From a virus (Duplodnaviria > Heunggongvirae > Uroviricota > Caudoviricetes), in the IMG/VR virus record IMGVR_UViG_3300029736_000004: 64,000 nt of DNA. One strand, written 5' to 3'. Under the pieces are notes generated by a model that ran no database searches, was not told where the DNA came from, and worked only from the letters and a program-made list of their open reading frames with translations. This document shows positions 48,479 through 63,367 of this stretch, one piece after another. How positions within the stretch are numbered: position 1 is the stretch's first letter; each line of letters opens with the position of its first letter. Made by a program: the position numbers and the translations under genes.

Positions 48479-49687
48479 ATGAGTCAGCAAGTAGAATCAT
48501 CAAGCCTGGAGATCATCTCAACCGCAATTGAAACGCTGCGGACACAAATCGCGCTTATACAGAAACGAAATCCGGGCGATGACCTGTCAAAGCGACTGCA
48601 TGAGAGCGTCATTGCCACTACAGATAACCTGGTGGCGGAAATCAACCAGCTCCTTGATGATGGGGCAGTTGATTACAATAAGCTGGTGGATCAGTTTGAG
48701 GAGTATCAGCAAGCCGTTAATGATGGCTTGATCCGTTTTTCTCAAGTCACTGGTGTATCAGCGACAGTTGAAAGCCTGGGGGATGCAGTTAATCAATTTG
48801 CCGCGAATATGCGTAATGAGATCGGCAATCTGGAGGCGCGTCTTGAGCAGGCAAATACACTGCGCAAATCTGCTGAAGTCGATTTGAGTCGTTACAAAAA
48901 AGACTATCCGCCAAGCCTGACAAAACGACTGGATGTTGCGGAGAAAGATAACCGCACGCTGAAAAGAGAGCGTCGCGAACTAAAAGAGCGTTTAACCAAG
49001 CTAAATCAGCAATGCGTTGAGTATCAAGGCGAACTCGTCACACTGCGTAAAAAGTTAGCAGCGGCGCAGAGCATTATTGAAACATTGAAACGAGAGTGCT
49101 CAGAGCTTGGTCATGATCTGAATCGCGCCTGTGGCATGGGGCAAAGGCCAGAGACATTCCCGCTAATGTATGACGGAAGAGAAGCTATTGCCTATATCCA
49201 TGAGTTTCCGCATGGTCTGGTCGCGGAGACTGGGCAACGTGGCGAAGCGTTGCTGACGGCAAATTACCATCAGCAAATCAGAACCAGCCGCCTGCTGACG
49301 ATGGATGTGATCCCGTCAGTATGGGGAACGCCGCTTTACTACCGAATTCCTGGCTTCGAAACTGACTGGAATACCGACATAGACGAATGTCTGGCAGATA
49401 AAATTATGGCGTACCTTGAAACGGATTTTCCACGCTTGCATCGCCGGATTATGGACTCTAAGGATGCACCGATCGACGAATTGAAAATGCGTCCAGAGAC
49501 GTTGGAGGCAATCAAGCAGACTGAGTTTGATACAGTGTTCAGTGTGGCCTGCATTCCAAGCAGCTTTCATGAAAGCATTCCGTTCATGCAGGGCGATCGC
49601 CGTCAGGAAATAATTGATGCTTGCCGGGTATGGGCGAACGAGTGGGATAAGAAGAACGGTGGAGTTGAAAATCTTTACGGGAAATAA
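48479..49687 (+). CDS. hypothetical coiled-coil protein
   Basis: 402 aa; N-terminal half predicted coiled coil, C-terminal globular part. Confidence 0.45.
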   Translation: MSQQVESSSLEIISTAIETLRTQIALIQKRNPGDDLSKRLHESVIATTDNLVAEINQLLDDGAVDYNKLVDQFEEYQQAVNDGLIRFSQVTGVSATVESLGDAVNQFAANMRNEIGNLEARLEQANTLRKSAEVDLSRYKKDYPPSLTKRLDVAEKDNRTLKRERRELKERLTKLNQQCVEYQGELVTLRKKLAAAQSIIETLKRECSELGHDLNRACGMGQRPETFPLMYDGREAIAYIHEFPHGLVAETGQRGEALLTANYHQQIRTSRLLTMDVIPSVWGTPLYYRIPGFETDWNTDIDECLADKIMAYLETDFPRLHRRIMDSKDAPIDELKMRPETLEAIKQTEFDTVFSVACIPSSFHESIPFMQGDRRQEIIDACRVWANEWDKKNGGVENLYGK

Positions 49688-49688
49688 T

Positions 49689-49720
49689 ATGTTAGAAAAT
49701 TAAAATTGTTTTTCTAACAT
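49689..49720. promoter_or_regulatory. operator-like perfect palindrome
   Basis: ATGTTAGAAAATTAAAATTGTTTTTCTAACAT; another site TGTTAGAAAGTAAA at 49840-49853. Confidence 0.5.
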
Positions 49721-50548
49721 ATTGATTATGGGGTTAACTTAACATAGAATTTTTCGTGCTGGTGGGGAGCTTCCCATGTCGCTTGCGGGTTTGATAGTCA
49801 CTTCATTGTCTTTCCCCACCAGCATCAAACAAATTTAAGTGTTAGAAAGTAAATTTTAAGGTAAGGGAAAGCTCCGGCACCGTGCAAATACATGCCCGGC
49901 AGGTTTAGTGCGTAAAGTGGCTTCAGCGAGAGCATTTTACGGAGTAAACGACAGTGACTTGAGCCACGGAAGGTCTTTTTATGGTGTTCATTGATGATGA
50001 TCTGGCAGTGAGTATGTTAAGTGGGCCAGGCTGCATCGGGTCATCATCAGTGCACATCCTCAACGTTAAGGAGGCGCAGAGTTGGGTTTTCCTCTTATTT
50101 TGCTGACTCTGAGTCTCCTTAACGTTGCGGTAATGCACCTATGCGGATGTGGCCTTGCATTGTGTCTTGAAAGAATGGGGTAAGGCCGGGGATATCCCCA
50201 GGGGGAGGCACCCCCGCTGCAACGAACAGCCACAGACGGCAGTCGAGTGATGGAAACGTGCAAAGACTTTAAACCTCGTTACGGCTGGCGTGGCAAACGC
50301 GACAACCGAGACAGAGCGGTGACGGGCGGAGAGAGAGCCGCTTCAAGATAAAAGCCGACTATGGATTCCTTTCTGCGGGCCTTTGAAAGTGAATCTTGCT
50401 CAGGCAGTCGGCTTTTATGTTGATACGTAGCGATAGCCGCGACAGGCGCGGCGGCAAGTATGGCGGGGTAGTGACTCCTTCCCCCTTATGACGCCGATTT
50501 GCCAGGCTGGCCATACGCCTAAGTGGCAATACCGCGAGTGGGATATTT

Positions 50549-53473: not shown

Positions 53474-53505
53474 TGTTAGTAAATTAATATTAATTTTCTA
53501 ATACA
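53474..53505. promoter_or_regulatory. operator-like inverted pair upstream of Lpa-like gene
   Basis: TGTTAGTAAATTAATATTAATTTTCTAATACA. Confidence 0.45.
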
Positions 53506-53580: not shown

Positions 53581-53973
53581 ATGGAGCAAATCAGTAGCGC
53601 CGAAATAGCGGATATCATGATCAGGGCTGACTGCTATCTGACGGTCACCGAAATCACCAGCCGTGCAAAAGCACAATATCCTCACCTTCATGTGTCGCGC
53701 GTAAACGTAAATAACATCATACGTTTTTTTGTTCGTTCCAGTCGTGCCATTTGCGAAATAGACGACCGCGTATACCCCCGGAAATATTGGTTACATGGCC
53801 TGAATGGATACCAGTTCAAGGTGCGCGGGCGCACTCCTGAATTCGGTCGGCTGTTGGTGAAAAACACCAACCGAAAGATAGAAGCTCAATTACGAAAGGA
53901 GCAGCGTCAGTTGGTGGCGATGACTAACCAGCTATGGAACGCCGCTGTGAAAAAACGTGAGGCTTCCCTATGA
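53581..53973 (+). CDS. putative late-gene activator (Lpa-like, by position)
   Basis: 130 aa immediately upstream of pacA with an operator-like palindrome in its promoter region; no motif-level support. Confidence 0.3.
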   Translation: MEQISSAEIADIMIRADCYLTVTEITSRAKAQYPHLHVSRVNVNNIIRFFVRSSRAICEIDDRVYPRKYWLHGLNGYQFKVRGRTPEFGRLLVKNTNRKIEAQLRKEQRQLVAMTNQLWNAAVKKREASL

Positions 53974-55334
53974 CGTTAATTAACTGGGAAGCGCATCGAG
54001 CTAAGTTCCTGGAGTTAAGAGAAGAAACCGGGATCACCATAAAAGAATATTGCGAGCAGCATGACCTCAGCTTTAACACCGCCAGAAAGCATCTCAATAT
54101 GAAAAAAAATGAGGTTAAGGCGAAAGCAAAGGCTGCCGGGAAAAGTACAAAACAGCGCGCAAAAAGCAGCGCCACCGGCTCAAAAAAAGAGCAAAAAAAG
54201 GCTGATAAAAGCACAGAATTTACAAAAACTGACAAATCGTTAGCTGGTGGACGGTTCCGCGCCATGCCGCAAAAACAAAATGCGGATCACAAAGAAAAGC
54301 CAAGTAATAACAACAAGATACACAAGGATGTGAAGGGATCATTTTGTGATGAAATGGGAGAAATGATCCCTAAAAGCAGCGAAAAAGCCCAACGAAACAA
54401 GGGATCATTGCAAATGATCCCTGACTCATCAGCTCAAAGCGCCACTTTGCCTGCCACCAACGTCGCCCGTGAGATGATGAAGAACGGCGCGACTGAACAT
54501 TTACGACTTGCGATACAGATGGCGCAGGAACGAGCAATTCAGTATCAGGCCATCGTTGACCAGGAAGCGGAGCGACTACAGGAAGAGATTGACGCCCTCG
54601 GCGATACACAGCCAGAGGGGATGCACCCAGGGCAGCGTCTTCTCGGCCTAATAAGCGATGCGGCCTACTACATGAATGACTTTATCAGTAGGTTGGCAGC
54701 CATCTACCAGACCGAGCAGAAGCTACGCCAGGGGGATGAAAAACTTGCGCAGGGCGCGCGTCAGCAGGCATTCAGGGAGGCTGAGGCCAGAGAAAAACTG
54801 GCGATTGCCCGCCTGCAGGCCGAGCAGCGTGGCAAGGAGATTGAGTATCGCATTGGCGCTGACGCACGCGCCGCCAGGGTTATCGCCGCCGCTATACGTA
54901 TGCGTGAGCGCGAGGAGCTGGACGATATAGGCGTAGCTGAATATATCGAGCGGCAGGGCGTCAGTGTCCCAGCTATCCTGGCGGCACGAGCGGCAAAAGC
55001 GATCTCACTTCTGGAGCCTCCGGTTTCTGACGTTAACGATGTTGATGATGAGCAACTGGATAAAGAGGCGAAGCAGTTTGCCGAGCAACAAGCTGGACTA
55101 CCACAATGGCTTGCACAACGCCGGGCTGAAGTAGCGAAAATCGTTGATAGGCTTGGGATGGGGGATTACGACCGGAACGGAGAACGTAAAGCCGGTGAAT
55201 TTGAGGCCAATGATGAAGACCTGAATATAGACCCTTCCGCCACGGCTGATATCTACGGTGATTATGACGCGGGGGATACCGGTTTTGATGCTGTAGATGA
55301 CGAGATTGTGATAGACCAGCCGGAGGATGACTAA
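53970..55334 (+). CDS. pacA: terminase small subunit (PacA-like)
   Basis: 454 aa directly upstream of the large terminase; N-terminal HTH-like region, Lys-rich linker, internal GATC-hexamer cluster. Confidence 0.6.
   Translation: MTLINWEAHRAKFLELREETGITIKEYCEQHDLSFNTARKHLNMKKNEVKAKAKAAGKSTKQRAKSSATGSKKEQKKADKSTEFTKTDKSLAGGRFRAMPQKQNADHKEKPSNNNKIHKDVKGSFCDEMGEMIPKSSEKAQRNKGSLQMIPDSSAQSATLPATNVAREMMKNGATEHLRLAIQMAQERAIQYQAIVDQEAERLQEEIDALGDTQPEGMHPGQRLLGLISDAAYYMNDFISRLAAIYQTEQKLRQGDEKLAQGARQQAFREAEAREKLAIARLQAEQRGKEIEYRIGADARAARVIAAAIRMREREELDDIGVAEYIERQGVSVPAILAARAAKAISLLEPPVSDVNDVDDEQLDKEAKQFAEQQAGLPQWLAQRRAEVAKIVDRLGMGDYDRNGERKAGEFEANDEDLNIDPSATADIYGDYDAGDTGFDAVDDEIVIDQPEDD
54333..54422. 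other. pac-like site: four GATC hexamers as two inverted pairs inside pacA
   Basis: GGGATCATT...AAATGATCCC at 54335-54370 and again at 54401-54420; GATC at 54337, 54365, 54403, 54416. Confidence 0.45.
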
Positions 55335-56842
55335 TGGCTGGTGGTCGTAAGATTAAGTGCGTCACCAGTGATCCACGTTGGCGCGATATGGTTATCAGGT
55401 ATCGATACAACTTTACCCAGGCGGTTGTCGATATTTTTGGGATGTTCCCCTCCCATCAGCAGCAGCAGATCATTCAGTCAGTGCAGGAGACGGGGAGCAG
55501 GACGACCGTTACGTCCGGACACGGAACGGGTAAGTCATCCCTTACCGCGATGTTGCTACTAATTTTTATGATCCTGTTCCCCGACGCCCGCGTCATTATT
55601 GTTGCGAACAAAATAGGCCAGGTAAAAACAGGCGTATTCAAATACGTGAAACAGTTTTGGGCGAATGCTGTTAAGCGCCACGGCTGGTTACAGACCTATT
55701 TTGTCCTGTCTGACACCATGTTTTATGAGCGTTCCCGTAAAGGGATATGGGAAGTGCTCTGTAAAGGTTATCGACTCGGTAACGAAGAGGCACTGGCGGG
55801 GGAGCACGCGGAGCATTTACTGCTAATCCTTGATGAAGCATCGGGCATATCCGATAAGGCGATTAACGTCATGACGGGGGCGTTAACGCAGAAAGATAAC
55901 CGTATGCTCATGCTTTCCCAGCCTACGCGTCCAAGCGGTTACTTTTATGAATCCCACCATTCAAGGGCAAAGGCAGAAGGCAATCCGGAAGGAGTCTGGA
56001 CGGCAATAGTCCTTAACTCTGAAGAATCTCCATTCGTTGAACCGAGCTTTATTCGTGAGAAATTGCTGGAGTACGGCGGCAGGGATTCGCTGGAGTACAT
56101 GGTTAAGGTGCTGGGCCAGTTCCCGCGTGCAATTAACGGGTATTTGCTTGGTCGTGATGAGTGCGACCGCGCCGCACGGCGTAAAGTGTTGCTGGAGAAA
56201 GATTGGGGCTGGGTAGCGACCGCTGACGTCGGTAATGGTCGCGACAAATCGGTGCTCAATATATGCAAAGTATCCGGTTATCGTGAGAAACGACGCGTTG
56301 TGAACTTTAAGATACTGGAGATGCCAGGCACTATGGACCCGTTGGCTTTTGCCGACTTTATCTATAACGAATGCACTCCTGATAAATACCCGAACATCAC
56401 CATTGCTGTGGATGCTGATGGCTTTGGTTCAGATACGTGTGCGCAGCTTGTCCGCCGTGGTGCTAATCCCGTTCGCATCCGTTGGGGTAAGCCTATGTTT
56501 GCGCTAAGAGACAGAGAACGCTTTGTCAATCAGCGTGCTTACGCCAATATTATGGCAGGGGATGCCATTAAATCAGGGCGTATGCGTATCGATAGTGACC
56601 CCAAAACCGCAGATCAGGCATCAAAAATCCCGTATATGCTTAACGAAGAAGGGAAGGTAGCGATGATGCGCAAGGAGCACATGCGGCAGAAGTTAAACAT
56701 CAAGTCGCCGGACAGATGGGATACCTACTGCTTCACTATGCTGGTGGATTACGTGCCTGCTAATGAAGACATTGGCGCAGAACTCGCAACATTCCGCGAT
56801 CAGGTGTTGGCAGAAGTGGATATTCCTGATATTGACATTTAA
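55334..56842 (+). CDS. pacB: terminase large subunit (PacB-like)
   Basis: Walker A SGHGTGKS, Walker B LLLILDEA, C-terminal nuclease-like acidic residues; GGAGGA SD. Confidence 0.75.
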   Translation: MAGGRKIKCVTSDPRWRDMVIRYRYNFTQAVVDIFGMFPSHQQQQIIQSVQETGSRTTVTSGHGTGKSSLTAMLLLIFMILFPDARVIIVANKIGQVKTGVFKYVKQFWANAVKRHGWLQTYFVLSDTMFYERSRKGIWEVLCKGYRLGNEEALAGEHAEHLLLILDEASGISDKAINVMTGALTQKDNRMLMLSQPTRPSGYFYESHHSRAKAEGNPEGVWTAIVLNSEESPFVEPSFIREKLLEYGGRDSLEYMVKVLGQFPRAINGYLLGRDECDRAARRKVLLEKDWGWVATADVGNGRDKSVLNICKVSGYREKRRVVNFKILEMPGTMDPLAFADFIYNECTPDKYPNITIAVDADGFGSDTCAQLVRRGANPVRIRWGKPMFALRDRERFVNQRAYANIMAGDAIKSGRMRIDSDPKTADQASKIPYMLNEEGKVAMMRKEHMRQKLNIKSPDRWDTYCFTMLVDYVPANEDIGAELATFRDQVLAEVDIPDIDI

Positions 56843-56879: not shown

Positions 56880-57917
56880 TTACCAGAGTTTTGCCGCGTA
56901 CATCGTTTGTGTGAATGTGTACCCATAGCGTTCTTCAACGCTTTTACCGTATTTTTTCCTGGCTTCAGTAAGGCGGATGCCTGTCAGGTCATCGCCGGAG
57001 GCAATCATAACTTCCAGTAGTTCCAGGTCCATTTTATCCAGCCTTGCCATTGCATCTTTAGCCTCTTGAATTTTCCGGCTAACGATCTGGTGTATGGCTG
57101 GATCGGCTTCGGCCAGCATTTTATCTGATTTGTTTTTTAAACTCTGATTGCGGATATCAATGTTTCTCAGGATATATGACTTCACGACATAGCTTGGCTG
57201 CTGCTTTTCCAGATCACGAACCCGATAAAGGTCAAATTCGCCGAGAAGTCCGCACGGAAGCGGTTTAATGCCAGTGTAAATGGTAAGGGTACGGCGCTCA
57301 CCAACGTTGTTAACAACGGGAATCTCTGTGTTTGCTTTTCTTGCAAAGATCAGCGCACCGTGCGCACCCACTCGGAAGCGTGAAAGTCCATTGTTGCCCT
57401 CGATATTGGTGGTAATCACCACATCGGTATAACCTTCTTTTCTTGCGCGGTATACCTCGCCCTCACGTTCAGCGGCGAAGAATCTGCGTTCTTCTTCAAG
57501 CGCACCGACAACCTGTGAAAATATCCTGTTTTTCATGCTTTTCTTTATAGTTTTATCGTATTTTTTCAGCAGGTCTTCGCGCGTAAATGTTCTCGTTGTG
57601 GTTGCGCTTTGCATAACGATATGCGTACTCTGATTAGTATCCTCAACAATGAATGGGATCGGTAAATAAACCGACTCAACAATGTTTGAGGCTTTGTCAT
57701 CATCCTTGCGACACAGATCAACAAAGGCTTTCCATTCGGCTATGCATTTTTCAGCTTCTTCTAATACAGCCGGATCATGTGTTAATGCAACATGGCGAAA
57801 TTCCTCGCCAACATAACTGGTATCATGGAAAACAGAGTTTGCGACCACCAGCTCTTTCCACCGTTCGGCGGTTTGCAGGAACCGTTTGTACTCATTCTCG
57901 ATCGACTTCTTACTCAT
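56880..57917 (-). CDS. candidate immunity repressor (c1 position)
   Basis: 345 aa between pacB and the rox-like site, as c1 lies in P1-family pac-c1 regions; operator-like sites at 57936-57946 and 58021-58030 in its upstream region. Confidence 0.35.
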   Translation of the reverse strand: MSKKSIENEYKRFLQTAERWKELVVANSVFHDTSYVGEEFRHVALTHDPAVLEEAEKCIAEWKAFVDLCRKDDDKASNIVESVYLPIPFIVEDTNQSTHIVMQSATTTRTFTREDLLKKYDKTIKKSMKNRIFSQVVGALEEERRFFAAEREGEVYRARKEGYTDVVITTNIEGNNGLSRFRVGAHGALIFARKANTEIPVVNNVGERRTLTIYTGIKPLPCGLLGEFDLYRVRDLEKQQPSYVVKSYILRNIDIRNQSLKNKSDKMLAEADPAIHQIVSRKIQEAKDAMARLDKMDLELLEVMIASGDDLTGIRLTEARKKYGKSVEERYGYTFTQTMYAAKLW

Positions 57918-57931
57918 TATTCCTACTCGAT

Positions 57932-57946
57932 TTAGTTTTCTAACAT
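57932..57946. promoter_or_regulatory. operator-like site (TTAGTTTTCTAACAT)
   Basis: 15 bp upstream of the c1-candidate start; variant ATTAGAAAAT at 58021-58030. Confidence 0.45.
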
Positions 57947-58102
57947 AAAAGTCCTGTGACAAATTTATGCTGAATAACAAGGTGAGTAAAGGATAAAACC
58001 GCTTTTTTTTGATTGTTCCTATTAGAAAATGTAGCCAGGAACGGCTACCGCATGGCTGACGGATTTGCGAAGTGATCTGGTCGGTGTTTTTTTGGGAAAA
58101 AA

Positions 58103-58134
58103 GCCCCGATTCCAACTTTAAATAATTGGCATTA
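58103..58134. other. rox-like site-specific recombination site
   Basis: CAACTTTAAATAAT-TGGC-ATTATTTAAAGTTA: 14-bp inverted arms with 4-bp spacer; 31/32 identical to the reverse complement of the D6 rox site as I recall it. Confidence 0.65.
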
Positions 58135-58296
58135 TTTAAAGTTAGGCTATAATCTCCAGTAAACAGGTAGTATTGACAAGGATGAAAAATCATGCCTCGA
58201 ATCAAAGGCTTGAATTTTGAAAATTAACTTATAACTACCCTGTCAGTTTTCTATTTTTCATGTAGCGTTATCTGTATATAGAGGTTTAATAGTTTC

Positions 58297-59325
58297 ATGG
58301 GTGAACTAGTTATCTCCGGCGGTTCTGGTGGTTTTCTGCGCGATATTGGCACCGAATACCAGGAAGCTGCAAAAAACTTTATGCAGTTCATGAACGACCA
58401 GGGAGCTTATGCCCCAAATACGCTTCGAGATCTCCGTCTGGTGTTTCATTCCTGGGCGCGGTGGTGTAACTCGCGCCAGCGCCCCTGGTTCCCGATTACG
58501 CCGGAAATGGCCCGCGAGTATCTTCTCCAGTTGCATGAGGCCGATCTGGCTTCGACCACCATTGATAAGCACTATGCCATGCTTAACATGCTGCTTTCGC
58601 AATGTGGCCTCCCGCCGCTCTCGGACGATAAAAGTGTGTCTCTGGCCATGCGGCGCATCCGGCGCGAAGCGGCAACGGAAAAAGGCGAGCGAACAGGCCA
58701 GGCTATACCGTTGCGGTGGGATGATCTGAAATTGCTCGACGTGTTGCTGTCCCGTTCCGAGCGGCTGGTGGACCTGCGCAATCGGGCGTTTCTCTTCGTG
58801 GCATACAATACCCTGATGCGTATGTCAGAAATCTCGCGCATCCGCGTCGGAGATCTGGAACAAACAGGTGACACTGTAACGCTGCATATTTCACACACGA
58901 AGACCATCACGACCGCCGCCGGACTTGATAAGGTGCTTTCTCGTTACACTACCGCCGTACTGAACGACTGGCTGGAGGTGTCCGGACTTCGAGAACATCC
59001 GGACGCGGTGCTATTCCCGCCAATACACCGCAGTAATAAGGCCAGAATCACGACAACGCCCCTTACTGCACCTGCAATGGAGAAAATATTCAGCGATGCC
59101 TGGGGGTTGCTGAACAAACGAGATGCCACGCCGAACAAAGGAAGATACCGGACGTGGACAGGCCATAGTGCGCGTGTTGGTGCGGCAATTGATATGGCTG
59201 AGAAACAGGTGTCAATGGTCGAGATCATGCAGGAAGGCACATGGAAAAAGCCCGAAACACTTATGCGATATTTGCGCCGTAGCGGGGCATCCGTTGGTGC
59301 AAATAGTCGCCTGATGGATTCATAA
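58297..59325 (+). CDS. dre: Cre-family tyrosine recombinase (Dre-like)
   Basis: WARWCNSRQRPWFPITPEMAREYLLQL...LPPLSDDKSVSLAMRRIRRE aligns with Cre WAAWCKLNNRKWFPAEPEDVRDYLLYL...SNAVSLVMRRIRKE; C-terminal WTGHSARVGAAIDMA catalytic region; rox-like site 160 bp upstream. Confidence 0.7.
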   Translation: MGELVISGGSGGFLRDIGTEYQEAAKNFMQFMNDQGAYAPNTLRDLRLVFHSWARWCNSRQRPWFPITPEMAREYLLQLHEADLASTTIDKHYAMLNMLLSQCGLPPLSDDKSVSLAMRRIRREAATEKGERTGQAIPLRWDDLKLLDVLLSRSERLVDLRNRAFLFVAYNTLMRMSEISRIRVGDLEQTGDTVTLHISHTKTITTAAGLDKVLSRYTTAVLNDWLEVSGLREHPDAVLFPPIHRSNKARITTTPLTAPAMEKIFSDAWGLLNKRDATPNKGRYRTWTGHSARVGAAIDMAEKQVSMVEIMQEGTWKKPETLMRYLRRSGASVGANSRLMDS

Positions 59326-59326
59326 A

Positions 59327-59340
59327 TTAATTTTCTAACA
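59327..59340. promoter_or_regulatory. operator-like site (TTAATTTTCTAACA)
   Basis: Perfect reverse-orientation 14-mer just after the dre stop. Confidence 0.45.
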
Positions 59341-59397
59341 ATCTTTTTAGACAGTGCATTTTAATGTAAAGTACCCTCGCCTATTGCGGAGGGTACT

Positions 59398-59742
59398 TTG
59401 CACAATCGTATTACGGAATCAAAACGCTTCACTGTTGACGGTTACACCATAACCTTCACTGCGGGCGTTAAGCGCGACCAGGCGGTCGTGGTGTTCGGTG
59501 TTATGACCGGACTTGATGCCGTTCCCGTATTTACCCTCGAAAAAAACTGGCGAAATCTGGAGGAAGCTGAACGCTACGTCCGGAAAGTAACCGTCATTGC
59601 TGCTGAAAAACTCCTGGCCCACTATCAGGAAAATTATCGCGCTATGACCGAGAAAATTAACCATGTTTTCACTCGCCCCACCAGCGGCTTCATTGCCCCT
59701 GATGCGAATGCCGGGCGCTATCCGGCAAGGGGGCGCAAATGA
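59398..59742 (+). CDS. hypothetical protein
   Basis: 114-aa ORF. Confidence 0.45.
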   Translation: MHNRITESKRFTVDGYTITFTAGVKRDQAVVVFGVMTGLDAVPVFTLEKNWRNLEEAERYVRKVTVIAAEKLLAHYQENYRAMTEKINHVFTRPTSGFIAPDANAGRYPARGRK

Positions 59743-60732: not shown

Positions 60733-61419
60733 ATGGCCAGCACTTTTCAGGTGTTCCCCAAATACAAAAGCCACAGCATCATTCGGGCATCGAAAATCAA
60801 AGATATTGTTATTGTCGGCGAAGCTTATGCGCCCATTTTTGGCAGTATCGAAGTCGTGGAGCCAAAAGGAATGACGCTTCGTGTTGATGGTGTGTTCTTG
60901 GAAAAATTCCGACCGCAAATAGGAGGATATCTCGTCACTGCTGAAAATGGCTATCTGGTCTATGTGCCAGAGAAAGCATTTGAAAAATGCTATAGCCGGG
61001 TTAACGACGCCTCCGAAAATGGGGTATCGCTCAGCATTGAAGGTCACAATGGGGTGACATTCATTACAGCCAGGGACGTAACTATTTCTGCAGGCGGTAT
61101 CGCTACTCTACAAGAAGAAATCGACCTTGAAGCAGCCGACTTTTCTGACGCGCTGATGTGGCTGAAGGATGGCAAGAAAGTTGCCCGGCGCGGGTGGAAT
61201 GGCGAAAACCAATTCTGCTGGCTGGTTCCAGACAAACAGGGCGCTTCAAGACTAACCCCTATAAAACATGCCATCAATGGAGAGCTTGAAATCAATTTCG
61301 ACTCTCCTCTTGCTCCTTATGGTACGCATTTCGCTTTGAAAAATGCACAAGGTGTAGTTGTTCCGTGGGTGCCTTCAGTTGGCGACCTGCTGGCCTGTGA
61401 CTGGTTTGTTGTGGAGTGA
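60733..61419 (+). CDS. hypothetical protein with C-terminal W-domain (MWLKDGKKVARRGW ... CDWFVVE)
   Basis: 228 aa; C-terminal domain shares the signature of three other proteins in the window. Confidence 0.45.
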   Translation: MASTFQVFPKYKSHSIIRASKIKDIVIVGEAYAPIFGSIEVVEPKGMTLRVDGVFLEKFRPQIGGYLVTAENGYLVYVPEKAFEKCYSRVNDASENGVSLSIEGHNGVTFITARDVTISAGGIATLQEEIDLEAADFSDALMWLKDGKKVARRGWNGENQFCWLVPDKQGASRLTPIKHAINGELEINFDSPLAPYGTHFALKNAQGVVVPWVPSVGDLLACDWFVVE

Positions 61420-62273: not shown

Positions 62274-62305
62274 GGAAGCCCGCTTGGTTGAGCGGGCTTC
62301 TTTTC
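62274..62305. terminator. bidirectional terminator-like hairpin between convergent genes
   Basis: GGAAGCCCGC-TTGGTTGA-GCGGGCTTC followed by TTTTC. Confidence 0.5.
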
Positions 62306-62684
62306 AAATATTGGAACCATATAGTTCACGTAGTTTTTCCGCTACTGAAGATACGGGGATTTCACCAGTTGCAGCCCCCACCGCAAGTTCCACCAGCACG
62401 GGAGAATCATATACCTGTATACCGTTACGGCGTAGAAATAGCAGCGCACTGTTTAGCGCGGTACGCTTATTGGCATCATTGAATATATGCCCTCTCGCAG
62501 TAGCCACCAGGTAGGTGGCGGAGACTTCGAAAAGGCCGGTGATCTCTTCGTAGGCAACTCTGGCCTGAACTCTCCCGATAATGGCCTCTGCCCTACCCGG
62601 ATCTGACATTCCCGGCAGGCCGCCGTAGCGGTTTATATTCGCATCATGAAGCGCAATAAGTTCTTCCGGTGATATATGCCTCAT
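62304..62684 (-). CDS. doc: Doc toxin (Fic/Doc family)
   Basis: [11 protein letters not shown] Fic/Doc motif; sequence near-identical to P1 Doc as I recall it; start overlaps phd stop. Confidence 0.85.
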
Positions 62685-62905
62685 TATCGGTTAACCAGTT
62701 CCTTGTTAGTGGAGTCCAGGGTGTCAAACAGGGATGCAAATTCAGCATCCAGCGCCGCTTTTTTGTAGGCTTCGAAAGTAGCCTTGCTGACAATTACTGC
62801 TGGCTCACGGCCTCTGCGGGTGATTTCAACCTCTTCACCGGCTTCAACATTGTTGAGCACTTCAGAAAGGTTGCCACGCGCGGTACGGAAGTTAATGGAT
62901 TGCAT
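62684..62905 (-). CDS. phd: Phd antitoxin
   Basis: [49 protein letters not shown]... matches P1 Phd as recalled; GAGGTG SD; start set at second Met. Confidence 0.85.
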
Positions 62906-62977
62906 AAACACCTCGTGTACTCGTTATGTGTACACAATTATAAACTTCACAGGCATAAAGCACCAGCACTTTGCAGC

Positions 62978-63367
62978 TTAAATAACCGGACAATCATCAA
63001 ATTCCCCACTCCGGGCATCATTGATGATGTGAGTGATCACGCCAAACACAGCATTGCTACCAGTATATCCATCATCATCCACTGGCAACGCCTCTTTCTT
63101 CCCGGTGCTTAAATCTTCCAGGTGCTGGCTCGGATGCTTCCGGTATCTCTTTATGCGATATTCCCCCTCTATAGCGCATACAAGCAGTGAACCATCAACC
63201 GGAGTAAGTGAGGAATCAACCACCAGCAAAGCACCTTGCAATATTCCCTCACGGTGATGGCTGTCTGCCGCCCGCATGAAGTAGGTCGCTGAAGGATGTC
63301 TGATTAGTTGCTGATCAAGAGAAATACGGCTCTCTGCATAATCCGCCGCAGGAGAAGGGAAGCCCAT
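62978..63367 (-). CDS. humD: UmuD-like SOS protein (HumD-like)
   Basis: 129 aa, GFPSPAADY N-terminus, S24 peptidase-like; LexA box directly upstream; humD-phd-doc order as in P1. Confidence 0.7.
   Translation of the reverse strand: MGFPSPAADYAESRISLDQQLIRHPSATYFMRAADSHHREGILQGALLVVDSSLTPVDGSLLVCAIEGEYRIKRYRKHPSQHLEDLSTGKKEALPVDDDGYTGSNAVFGVITHIINDARSGEFDDCPVI

What the first reader, a model, noticed from the sequence alone, without database searches (positions are those of the whole stretch)
58103..59325. rox-like 32-bp site 160 bp upstream of a Cre/Dre-family recombinase
CAACTTTAAATAAT-TGGC-ATTATTTAAAGTTA has perfect 14-bp inverted arms around a 4-bp spacer and differs at one position from the reverse complement of the D6 rox site as I remember it. 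The adjacent 342-aa protein aligns with Cre over the N-terminal and catalytic regions. The pacB - c1 candidate - site - recombinase order matches P1-family pac-c1 regions. This points to a heterospecific Cre homolog and places the element in the D6 branch.
Basis: partly seen in the sequence, partly recalled or inferred. Interest (0 to 1): 0.6.

Follow-up and report, generated by a model that had tools for sequence, protein, structure and literature searches.

The report
Dre recombinase with its rox site
This is the already-known Dre/rox recombination module of a phage D6-like plasmid prophage of E. coli (a Cre/loxP relative widely used as a genetic tool), here as a 94%-identical allele whose target site has one base changed at its outer edge, so it is correctly identified but ordinary.

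Summary
The 32-mer is real, at 58113-58144, and is far beyond chance. It is the published rox site read in the direction of the recombinase gene, with one change: T to C at the outermost base of the left arm. The adjacent 342-aa protein (58297-59325) is 93.9% identical to Dre of phage D6 and 41% identical to Cre. It keeps all the catalytic residues (R175, K202, H290, R293, W316, Y325). The gene order pacA-pacB-c1-site-recombinase matches D6, and the whole 64-kb window is collinear with D6.

Forty-seven other natural copies of the site all carry T at position 1, including four next to the identical protein. The C is therefore a private variant, not a new specificity. The exact protein is already in public databases.

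The likely function is the same as for Cre/loxP: resolving plasmid-prophage multimers and circularising injected DNA.

Side observations:
- A strong sigma-70-type promoter is built into the site, with a conserved TATAAT beside it.
- The spacer varies in nature (TAGT, TAGC, GGGG).
- A recurrent 16-bp motif looks like the operator of the C1-like repressor.

The parts
58113..58144 (+). rox-type recombination site: left arm 58113-58126 (CAACTTTAAATAAT), spacer 58127-58130 (TGGC), right arm 58131-58144 (ATTATTTAAAGTTA). It matches D6 rox at 31 of 32 bases; the difference is T to C at 58113.
58297..59325 (+). Dre-type tyrosine recombinase gene, 342 aa, 93.9% identical to D6 Dre and 41% to P1 Cre. 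Catalytic residues R175, E178, K202, H290, R293, W316 and Y325 are present.
58126..58153 (+). Sigma-70-type promoter-like element overlapping the site and pointing at the recombinase gene. The -35 hexamer TTGGCA (58126-58131) is the last base of the left arm, the spacer and the first base of the right arm. A 16-nt spacer follows, then the -10 hexamer TATAAT (58148-58153). It matches 11 of 12 consensus positions.
   Evidence: TATAAT is kept at the same spacing in 47 of 48 natural copies while the 3 nt before it and the roughly 14 nt after it vary. Function is inferred, not shown.
58154..58296 (+). Leader between the promoter-like element and the ATG. Long blocks (for example AACTTATAACTACCCTGTCA and GTAGCG..TATAGAGG) are conserved even beside a recombinase that is only 70% identical. 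The cause is unexplained.
   Evidence: There is no homology to the region upstream of P1 cre, and the RNA fold is no better than shuffled sequence (z = 0.01).
56880..57917 (-). c1-type prophage repressor gene, 345 aa, 81% identical to D6 C1.
   Evidence: A precomputed Pfam hit to PF27008 (Phage_P7_repressor_C1) is on record for the same gene. My own Pfam scan found nothing.
57932..57947 (+). Candidate C1 operator (TTAGTTTTCTAACATA) about 19 nt upstream of the c1 start codon. It is one of 7 copies of this motif in the window.
   Evidence: P1 has an autoregulatory operator in the equivalent position. This is inferred.
59327..59342 (+). Operator-like copy (TTAATTTTCTAACAAT, 2 mismatches in the 12-nt core) directly after the recombinase stop codon and ahead of the next gene.
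   Evidence: This is inferred.
53970..56842 (+). pacA (53970-55334) and pacB (55334-56842) terminase genes, in the same order as in D6 and P1.
54284..54420 (.). Five copies of GGATCA/TGATCC, each containing a Dam methylation site, within 137 nt inside pacA. This is the densest GATC cluster in the window and a candidate pac site, about 3.8 kb from the rox site.
   Evidence: P1 pac lies about 4.0 kb from lox and has TGATCA/G hexamers. This is inferred.

Best explanation
The window is part of a phage D6-like plasmid prophage of E. coli. Positions 58113-59325 are its Dre/rox module: a Cre-family tyrosine recombinase gene and, 152 nt upstream, the single 32-bp site on which the enzyme acts.

Mechanism, inferred from the Cre/loxP and Dre/rox literature. 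One recombinase monomer binds each 14-bp arm. Two sites synapse in a tetramer. Y325 attacks the DNA next to the spacer, and strands are exchanged through a Holliday junction. The asymmetric TGGC spacer gives the site its direction.

Biological role, inferred from P1. The module resolves head-to-tail multimers of the low-copy plasmid prophage so that copies can be partitioned. It also circularises terminally redundant DNA after injection. The site lies about 3.8 kb from a candidate pac site, as lox does in P1, which fits that second role.

The T to C change at the outermost base of the left arm is a lineage-private polymorphism. It most likely has little or no effect on recombination.

What is shown here: sequence identity, catalytic residues, gene order, conservation of the site and its uniqueness in the window. 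What is inferred: activity, specificity and biological role.
For: - Site: 31 of 32 bases match the annotated and published rox.
- Protein: 93.9% identical to Dre. It aligns with Cre structures at E = 4e-72, hits the Phage_integrase and SAM-like N-terminal domains, and has all catalytic residues.
- Specificity: none of the 21 differences from Dre falls at positions equivalent to Cre K43, R259 or G263, or at other DNA-facing positions I checked (PMC4957104).
- Context: gene order pacA-pacB-c1-rox-dre is as in AY753669, and the window is collinear with D6.
- Relatives: similar DNA occurs in 193 plasmids and in 155 of 5,426 complete E. coli genomes, with 154 of 159 places on plasmids.
- Selection on the site: the arms are identical in 47 other natural copies, although the left flank has at least 5 unrelated versions and the neighbouring proteins diverge to 70% identity.
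- The C variant: four assemblies that encode the identical protein have canonical T.
- Tolerance: Dre tolerates 2 to 4 half-site mismatches (PMC10250229) and recombines pox, whose arms differ from rox at one base (PMC4957104).
- Copy number: there is one site per window, as expected for a resolution or circularisation site.
- Role: Cre/loxP resolves P1 plasmid multimers (PMC2409434).
Against: - Nothing here measures recombination.
- The C at 58113 breaks the 14th pair of the arms. No published data that I could read address that position of rox.
- This allele has 21 substitutions relative to Dre and has not been tested.
- The two primary papers, Sauer & McDermott 2004 and Gilcrease & Casjens 2018, are not in the library. 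What they say about the minimal site or about dre expression could not be checked.
Confidence: 0.9

Rival explanations
1. The pair is a new heterospecific system. On this reading the protein's 21 substitutions and the C at site position 1 have co-evolved, so the enzyme prefers its own site and no longer cross-reacts with Dre/rox.
For: The site differs from rox at one base. The protein differs from Dre at 21 positions, 15 of them in the N-terminal 102 residues of the DNA-binding lobe.
Against: - The identical protein sits next to canonical T-rox in four other assemblies. Proteins 99.4-99.7% identical do so as well.
- Only one arm is changed, so any new preference could not apply to both half-sites.
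- The arms are unchanged even beside recombinases that are 88% and 70% identical.
- The positions equivalent to the Cre specificity residues are the same as in Dre.
- Dre is tolerant of half-site mismatches.
Confidence: 0.03
2. The C at 58113 makes a weakened left arm, comparable to the engineered lox71-type left-element mutants (this comparison is from my own knowledge). That would lower Dre affinity and slow or bias resolution in this lineage. Alternatively, the C is simply an assembly error.
For: T is invariant at this position in 47 other copies set in several different flank contexts, so the position is under constraint. The change sits beside a small indel in a homopolymer-rich flank.
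Against: - The same C is present in a second record, the ENA gut-metagenome contig L031. That contig's coordinates cannot contain the whole window, which argues against a one-off error.
- The position is the outermost one.
- Dre accepts sites with several half-site mismatches.
Confidence: 0.15
3. The palindrome is mainly a transcriptional element for the neighbouring genes, either a hairpin terminator or a repressor operator, and not a recombination site.
For: - A promoter-like element overlaps it.
- An almost identical AT-rich palindrome in a Clostridia genome lies between convergent genes like a terminator.
- The other long palindrome in the window is built from an operator-like motif.
Against: - The sequence is the experimentally validated Dre target (PMC4777119; D6 annotation).
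- It has no G+C-rich stem and no T-run.
- It does not contain the recurrent operator motif.
- A regulatory role can coexist with recombination, so it is not a true alternative.
Confidence: 0.02
4. The protein is a conventional phage integrase that inserts the element into the chromosome at an attachment site.
For: Databases name it 'tyrosine-type recombinase/integrase'. Five of the 159 matching places in E. coli genomes are on chromosomes (not examined further).
Against: - 154 of 159 places are on plasmids of about 90 kb.
- The protein aligns end to end with Cre and has no extra arm-binding domain.
- The site is a simple 32-bp palindrome-plus-spacer next to the gene, as in P1 and D6.
Confidence: 0.02

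Closest known systems
Dre/rox of Escherichia phage D6 (GenBank AY753669 and MF356679; described by Sauer & McDermott 2004, cited through PMC4777119 and PMC4957104)
   Same: The protein has the same length and is 93.9% identical, with the same catalytic and specificity-position residues. The site matches at 31 of 32 bases with the same TGGC spacer and orientation. The 152-nt distance to the ATG is the same. The gene order pacA-pacB-c1-rox-dre-orf-orf-dut is the same.
   Different: There are 21 amino-acid substitutions. Site position 1 is C, not T. The roughly 100 nt left of the site are unrelated to those in D6. DNA identity is about 87% over 57900-59400 and 82% across the window.
Cre/loxP of phage P1
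   Same: Both belong to the same protein family (41% identity, E = 4e-72 against Cre structures) and share the catalytic residues. Both have a single site upstream of the recombinase gene, next to c1 and about 4 kb from pac. Both presumably resolve multimers and circularise DNA.
   Different: - loxP is 13-8-13 and rox is 14-4-14, and there is no loxP in the window.
- P1 has the cra gene and three promoters between lox and cre, plus a C1-controlled promoter upstream of lox. Here a promoter-like element overlaps the site itself and there is no intervening ORF.
- The leader sequences are not homologous.
Panto/pox (Pantoea sp. aB) and other Cre-type recombinases (YR series)
   Same: All are Cre-type enzymes with lox-like palindromic targets. 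The pox arms differ from rox at one base, and Dre and Panto each recombine the other's site (PMC4957104; PMC10250229).
   Different: Panto is only 52% identical to Dre. The window protein is a near-identical Dre allele, not a separate system.
Resolvases that also repress their own promoter: Tn3 resolvase at res, and the D protein of mini-F at rfsF (from my own knowledge, not checked here)
   Same: If the promoter embedded in rox is real, recombinase bound to its own site would sit between the -35 and -10 elements and limit its own synthesis, as in those systems.
   Different: There is no evidence of repression here, and Tn3 resolvase is a serine recombinase. This is an analogy of logic only, not of family membership.

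Membership tests
Dre/rox (D6-type Cre-family system) | Tyrosine-recombinase catalytic residues at the Dre positions R175, H290, R293, W316, Y325, plus K202 | tested here: met
   All are present in the alignment with Dre and Cre. The numbering agrees with PMC4777119.
Dre/rox (D6-type Cre-family system) | Close sequence identity to Dre over the full length | tested here: met
   321 of 342 residues are identical and there are no gaps.
Dre/rox (D6-type Cre-family system) | 32-bp target with 14-bp inverted arms TAACTTTAAATAAT and a 4-bp asymmetric spacer | tested here: met
   31 of 32 bases match, and the spacer and orientation are identical. One arm carries C for T at its outermost base, so arm symmetry is 13 of 14.
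Dre/rox (D6-type Cre-family system) | Location in a D6-like phage-plasmid with the gene order pacA-pacB-c1-rox-dre | tested here: met
Dre/rox (D6-type Cre-family system) | The enzyme recombines two rox sites and does not recombine loxP | not testable with these tools
   This is an experimental property. It is reported for Dre in PMC4957104 and is only inferred for this allele.
Cre/loxP (P1-type) | Near-identity to Cre | tested here: not met
   41% identity
Cre/loxP (P1-type) | A 34-bp loxP site (13-8-13) next to the gene | tested here: not met
   No match within 3 mismatches anywhere in the window.
Cre-type tyrosine site-specific recombinases (broad family) | Cre-like two-domain protein alignable end to end with Cre, plus a lox-like palindromic target upstream of its gene | tested here: met
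   Residues 22-341 align with Cre residues 21-340. Pfam domains PF00589 and PF02899 are found. The site lies 152 nt upstream.

The most novel reading that the evidence does not exclude
The rox site may serve as the core of the dre promoter as well as the crossover site. Its spacer and the two bases flanking it form a -35 hexamer (TTGGCA). Its right arm fills the 16-nt promoter spacer. A strictly conserved TATAAT follows 3 nt after the site. Dre bound to its own site would then shut off its own transcription, which would be an autoregulated resolvase arrangement not present at P1 loxP.

A corollary concerns the natural spacer variants (TAGT, TAGC, GGGG). They would both retune this promoter and create naturally incompatible rox classes among co-resident D6-like elements and the IncFIB resistance plasmids that carry dre relics.
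Probability: 0.3. Interest if true: 0.35.

Novelty: already known. Interest (0 to 1): 0.15.

Why it matters
For genome annotation, the value is modest. This gene and hundreds like it are labelled only 'tyrosine-type recombinase/integrase' in RefSeq, although they are Dre orthologues with an identifiable rox site. The module also marks the element as a D6-type phage-plasmid.

For tool builders, the natural census may be mildly useful. The arms are invariant across recombinases down to 70% identity, position 1 is almost always T, and the spacer occurs naturally as TGGC, TAGT, TAGC and GGGG.

The promoter embedded in the site, if real, would explain how dre expression is kept low. It is cheap to test.

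None of this changes the current understanding of Cre-family recombination.

Tried and rejected
1. Late promoter in the leader. The conserved leader contains AACTT-ataac-TACCCT, which resembles P1 LPpac (ATGTGACTT-tcgt-TACCCT). The motif occurs nowhere else in the window, so the idea has no support.

2. Structured RNA in the leader. The fold energy equals that of shuffled sequence (z = 0.01).

3. Homology of the leader to the region upstream of P1 cre. None was found. Part of that alignment used wrong coordinates for L013 and is uninformative for that row.

4. One-genome-per-species scan for rox-like palindromes. The only hit was an AT-rich hairpin between convergent housekeeping genes in a Clostridia MAG, with no recombinase nearby. 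It is a chance look-alike.

5. Primary papers. Sauer & McDermott 2004, Gilcrease & Casjens 2018 and Lobocka et al. 2004 are not held. Statements about them rest on secondary citations or on GenBank annotation.

6. rox as a visible mosaic breakpoint.
- One locus (L030) has a D6-identical right flank (97-100%) but a left flank only 74% identical, with the switch at the site. This is consistent with crossover at rox but is equally explained by homologous exchange nearby.
- In the IncFIB plasmids L004, L005 and L044 only about 23% of the 600-nt left flank still matches pK91, roughly 140 nt. I place the break about that far to the left of the site, where IS5 and IS26 copies are annotated in L004 and L005, so it is not at rox.

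7. A second sigma-70-type promoter at the conserved TTGACA (58172-58177). Its best -10 candidate is TCGAAT with an 18-nt spacer, which the scan did not call. This is left open.

Full report
**Observation**

The 32-mer CAACTTTAAATAATTGGCATTATTTAAAGTTA is present once in the window, at 58113-58144 on the + strand. No second copy exists within three mismatches. The only other half-site-like match has two mismatches and is at chance level.

The inverted repeat is perfect over 13 nt per arm (58114-58126 and 58131-58143) with 4 nt between the arms. The 14th, outermost pair is C against A and so does not pair.

The repeat is far beyond chance. Only two perfect inverted repeats with arms of at least 13 nt and gaps of at most 10 nt occur in the 64 kb, and none occurred in 30 dinucleotide-preserving shuffles.

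The neighbouring ORF is 58297-59325 and encodes 342 aa. There are 152 nt between the site and its ATG.

**Identity of the site**

The published wild-type rox is 5'-TAACTTTAAATAATGCCAATTATTTAAAGTTA (PMC4777119). GenBank AY753669, the D6 immC region, annotates the 'region of crossover (rox) site for Dre recombinase' upstream of dre. In the dre direction it reads TAACTTTAAATAATTGGCATTATTTAAAGTTA. The window copy is that sequence with T to C at position 1 and nothing else changed.

**Identity of the protein**

- It is 321/342 (93.9%) identical to D6 Dre, with no gaps.
- It is 41% identical to P1 Cre (42% by tblastn).
- It matches Cre crystal-structure sequences over residues 22-341 at E = 4e-72.
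- It has the Phage_integrase and SAM-like N-terminal Pfam domains.
- In an alignment with Cre and Dre, the residues R175, E178, K202, H290, R293, W316 and Y325 are all present. These are the positions given for Dre in PMC4777119.
- Of the 21 differences from Dre, 15 lie in the first 102 residues. None falls at the equivalents of Cre K43, R259 and G263, the positions shown to discriminate loxP from rox (PMC4957104). None falls at the other DNA-facing positions I checked from my own knowledge of the Cre-loxP structures.

**Context**

- pacA (53970-55334), pacB (55334-56842) and a minus-strand 345-aa gene that is 81% identical to D6 C1 (56880-57917) precede the site. Two small ORFs and dut follow the recombinase, exactly as in D6.
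- The entire window is collinear with the D6 genome: 88% is aligned at a mean identity of 82%.
- Similar DNA occurs in 193 PLSDB plasmids and in 155 of 5,426 complete E. coli genomes. Of the 159 matching places, 154 are on plasmids, typically about 90 kb and non-mobilizable.
- Three identity bands appear. The window's own sub-lineage is at 97-99%. The D6 clade is at 84-87%. A band at about 78.5% consists of dre copies inside IncFIB conjugative or resistance plasmids, often flanked by IS26 and IS5.
- The exact 342-aa protein is already public: 17 contigs from E. coli, named only 'tyrosine-type recombinase/integrase'.
- Karimova et al. had already noted Dre and rox in E. coli strains H252 and DEC12A (PMC4957104). 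D6-like plasmid prophages are well described (PMC6799933).

**Is the C at position 1 meaningful?**

I read 47 other natural copies. These were 5 from GenBank and PLSDB records, 23 from viral contigs, 4 from assemblies encoding the identical protein, and 15 from metagenome contigs. Not all are independent. All have T at position 1. They sit in at least five unrelated left-flank contexts, so T belongs to the conserved site.

C occurs only in the window and in one ENA gut-metagenome contig (L031). That contig is identical to the window over 4,029 nt, and its coordinates cannot contain the whole window. Four assemblies encoding the identical protein carry T.

The C is therefore a lineage-private variant and not part of a co-evolved new specificity. 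An assembly error is less likely but is not excluded.

Dre recombines targets with two to four half-site mismatches (PMC10250229). It also recombines pox, whose arms differ from rox at one base (PMC4957104). A single change at the outermost base of one arm is thus most likely tolerated. That is an inference, not a measurement.

**Mechanism**

By homology with Cre/loxP and from the published work on Dre/rox, the mechanism is as follows. One monomer binds each arm. Two sites synapse in a tetramer. The catalytic tyrosine cleaves next to the spacer, and strand exchange proceeds through a Holliday junction. The asymmetric spacer sets the direction of the site (PMC4777119).

The natural job of Cre/loxP is to resolve multimers of the low-copy P1 plasmid prophage (PMC2409434). 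From my own knowledge of P1 biology, it also circularises terminally redundant DNA after injection.

The geometry here fits. A cluster of five Dam-site hexamers (GGATCA/TGATCC, 54284-54420), the densest GATC cluster in the window, lies inside pacA about 3.8 kb from the site. The P1 pac cleavage site, flanked by TGATCA/G hexamers, lies about 4.0 kb from lox.

The single copy of the site per genome is what a resolution or circularisation site requires.

**Conservation pattern around the site**

- To the left there is a hypervariable stretch.
- The 32-mer itself is invariant except for its spacer and for position 1 in this window.
- Three variable bases follow.
- Then comes TATAAT, kept in 47 of 48 copies at the same spacing. 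The exception is L004, which has TATGAT.
- About 14 variable bases follow, and then a leader with long conserved blocks.

The promoter scan calls TTGGCA (58126-58131), a 16-nt spacer and TATAAT (58148-58153) as an 11-of-12 sigma-70-type match directed at the recombinase gene. The -35 hexamer is made of the last base of the left arm, the spacer and the first base of the right arm.

P1 has nothing comparable next to loxP on the cre side. Its annotated cre promoters lie at least 100 bp downstream, and one C1-controlled promoter lies upstream of lox.

I infer, without a test, that this is a dre promoter and that Dre bound at rox would occlude it. I give that reading a probability of about 0.3. I could not check whether the primary D6 papers already describe it.

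**Things seen on the way**

- Natural spacer variants exist: TAGT in several IncFIB plasmids and metagenome contigs, TAGC next to a recombinase that is 70% identical, and GGGG in one viral contig. Both TGGC and TAGT occur next to nearly identical proteins of the IncFIB clade. PMC4777119 reports that changes confined to the central four bases have only a mild effect on compatibility with wild-type rox.
- The motif TTA(A/G)TTTTCTAACATA recurs seven times at one mismatch or fewer, against 0.33 expected. One copy lies about 19 nt upstream of the c1 start, and two copies form a palindrome at 49687-49722. Two-mismatch copies lie in the region upstream of the lpa-like gene and directly after the recombinase stop codon. 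By position, and by its shared CTAA core with the P1 operator, it is a candidate operator for the C1-like repressor. No copy lies between rox and the recombinase ATG, which suggests that dre is not under C1 control.

**Verdict**

It is the known Dre/rox module in a D6-like phage-plasmid, carried by a publicly known protein allele, with a private single-base variant at the edge of the site. Novelty: already known. Interest: low.

Noticed in passing
window 58126-58153 (+): A sigma-70-type promoter-like element is embedded in the rox site. The -35 hexamer TTGGCA is built from the spacer, the right arm fills the 16-nt spacer, and the -10 hexamer TATAAT lies 3 nt past the site (11 of 12 consensus positions). 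TATAAT is kept at the same spacing in 47 of 48 natural copies while neighbouring bases vary. P1 loxP has nothing comparable. This suggests autoregulation of the recombinase gene.
   Followed up: partly
L003 4004-4035, L004 4004-4035, L039, L045, L051 (TAGT); L013/L040 (TAGC); L020 (GGGG): Natural rox spacer variants occur with unchanged arms. Within the IncFIB-plasmid clade, both TGGC and TAGT occur beside nearly identical recombinases. These are possible naturally heterotypic rox classes.
   Followed up: partly
window 6678, 36288, 37484, 48443, 49688, 49710, 57936 (12-nt core); weaker copies at 53494 and 59331: The motif TTA(A/G)TTTTCTAACATA recurs 7 times against 0.33 expected. One copy lies about 19 nt upstream of the c1-like start codon, and two copies form a perfect palindrome at 49687-49722. 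Weaker copies lie in the region upstream of the lpa-like gene and right after the recombinase stop codon. It is a candidate operator set of the D6-type C1 repressor.
   Followed up: partly
window 54284-54420: Five GGATCA/TGATCC hexamers, each containing a Dam site, lie within 137 nt inside pacA. This is the densest GATC cluster in the window. It resembles the P1 pac site with its TGATCA/G hexamers and lies at a similar distance from the recombination site (about 3.8 kb, against about 4.0 kb in P1).
   Followed up: partly
window 58154-58296: The leader of the recombinase gene has long blocks conserved even next to a recombinase that is 70% identical (for example AACTTATAACTACCCTGTCA and GTAGCG..TATAGAGG). 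It has no homology to the P1 cre leader, no stable RNA fold and no conserved small ORF. It includes TACCCT, the -10 hexamer of P1 late promoter LPpac, but the motif is unique in the window. The conservation is unexplained.
   Followed up: partly
L003 (pK91, Salmonella Typhi), L004 (pSa76-CIP), L005 (p1079-IncFIB-N): About 80 plasmids, many of them IncFIB conjugative or multidrug-resistance plasmids, carry a dre gene (88% identical at the protein level) with its rox site. It is often isolated between IS26 and IS5 copies next to integrons or mer genes. These look like relics of D6-like phage-plasmids captured by resistance plasmids. pK91 still has c1, dut, phd/doc and humD around it.
   Followed up: partly
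L030 2149-2178 and flanks: This is a mosaic junction at the site. The right flank is 97-100% identical to the D6 clade, while the left flank (c1 side) is only 74% identical and not alignable near the site. The pattern is consistent with exchange at or next to rox between different immunity types.
   Followed up: partly
window 62304-62911 (-) and 62978-63367 (-): The phd/doc addiction module and a humD (umuD-like) gene lie downstream, as in P1 and D6. The gene at 60733-61419 carries a precomputed Pfam hit to PF11195 (Tad2-like) in the equivalent loci.
   Followed up: no
L007 6381-6412 (Clostridia MAG OZ007016): An almost exact rox-arm palindrome (ATAACTTTAAATAAT TAAT ATTATTTAAAGTTAT) lies between two convergent housekeeping genes in an AT-rich genome, with no recombinase nearby. 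It is a chance, terminator-like look-alike and a caution for motif-only searches for rox pseudo-sites.
   Followed up: yes
E. coli genome search: Five of the 159 places matching the site-plus-gene stretch (window 57900-59400) in complete E. coli genomes are on chromosomes and not on plasmids. I did not examine whether these are integrated elements, relics or assembly issues.
   Followed up: no
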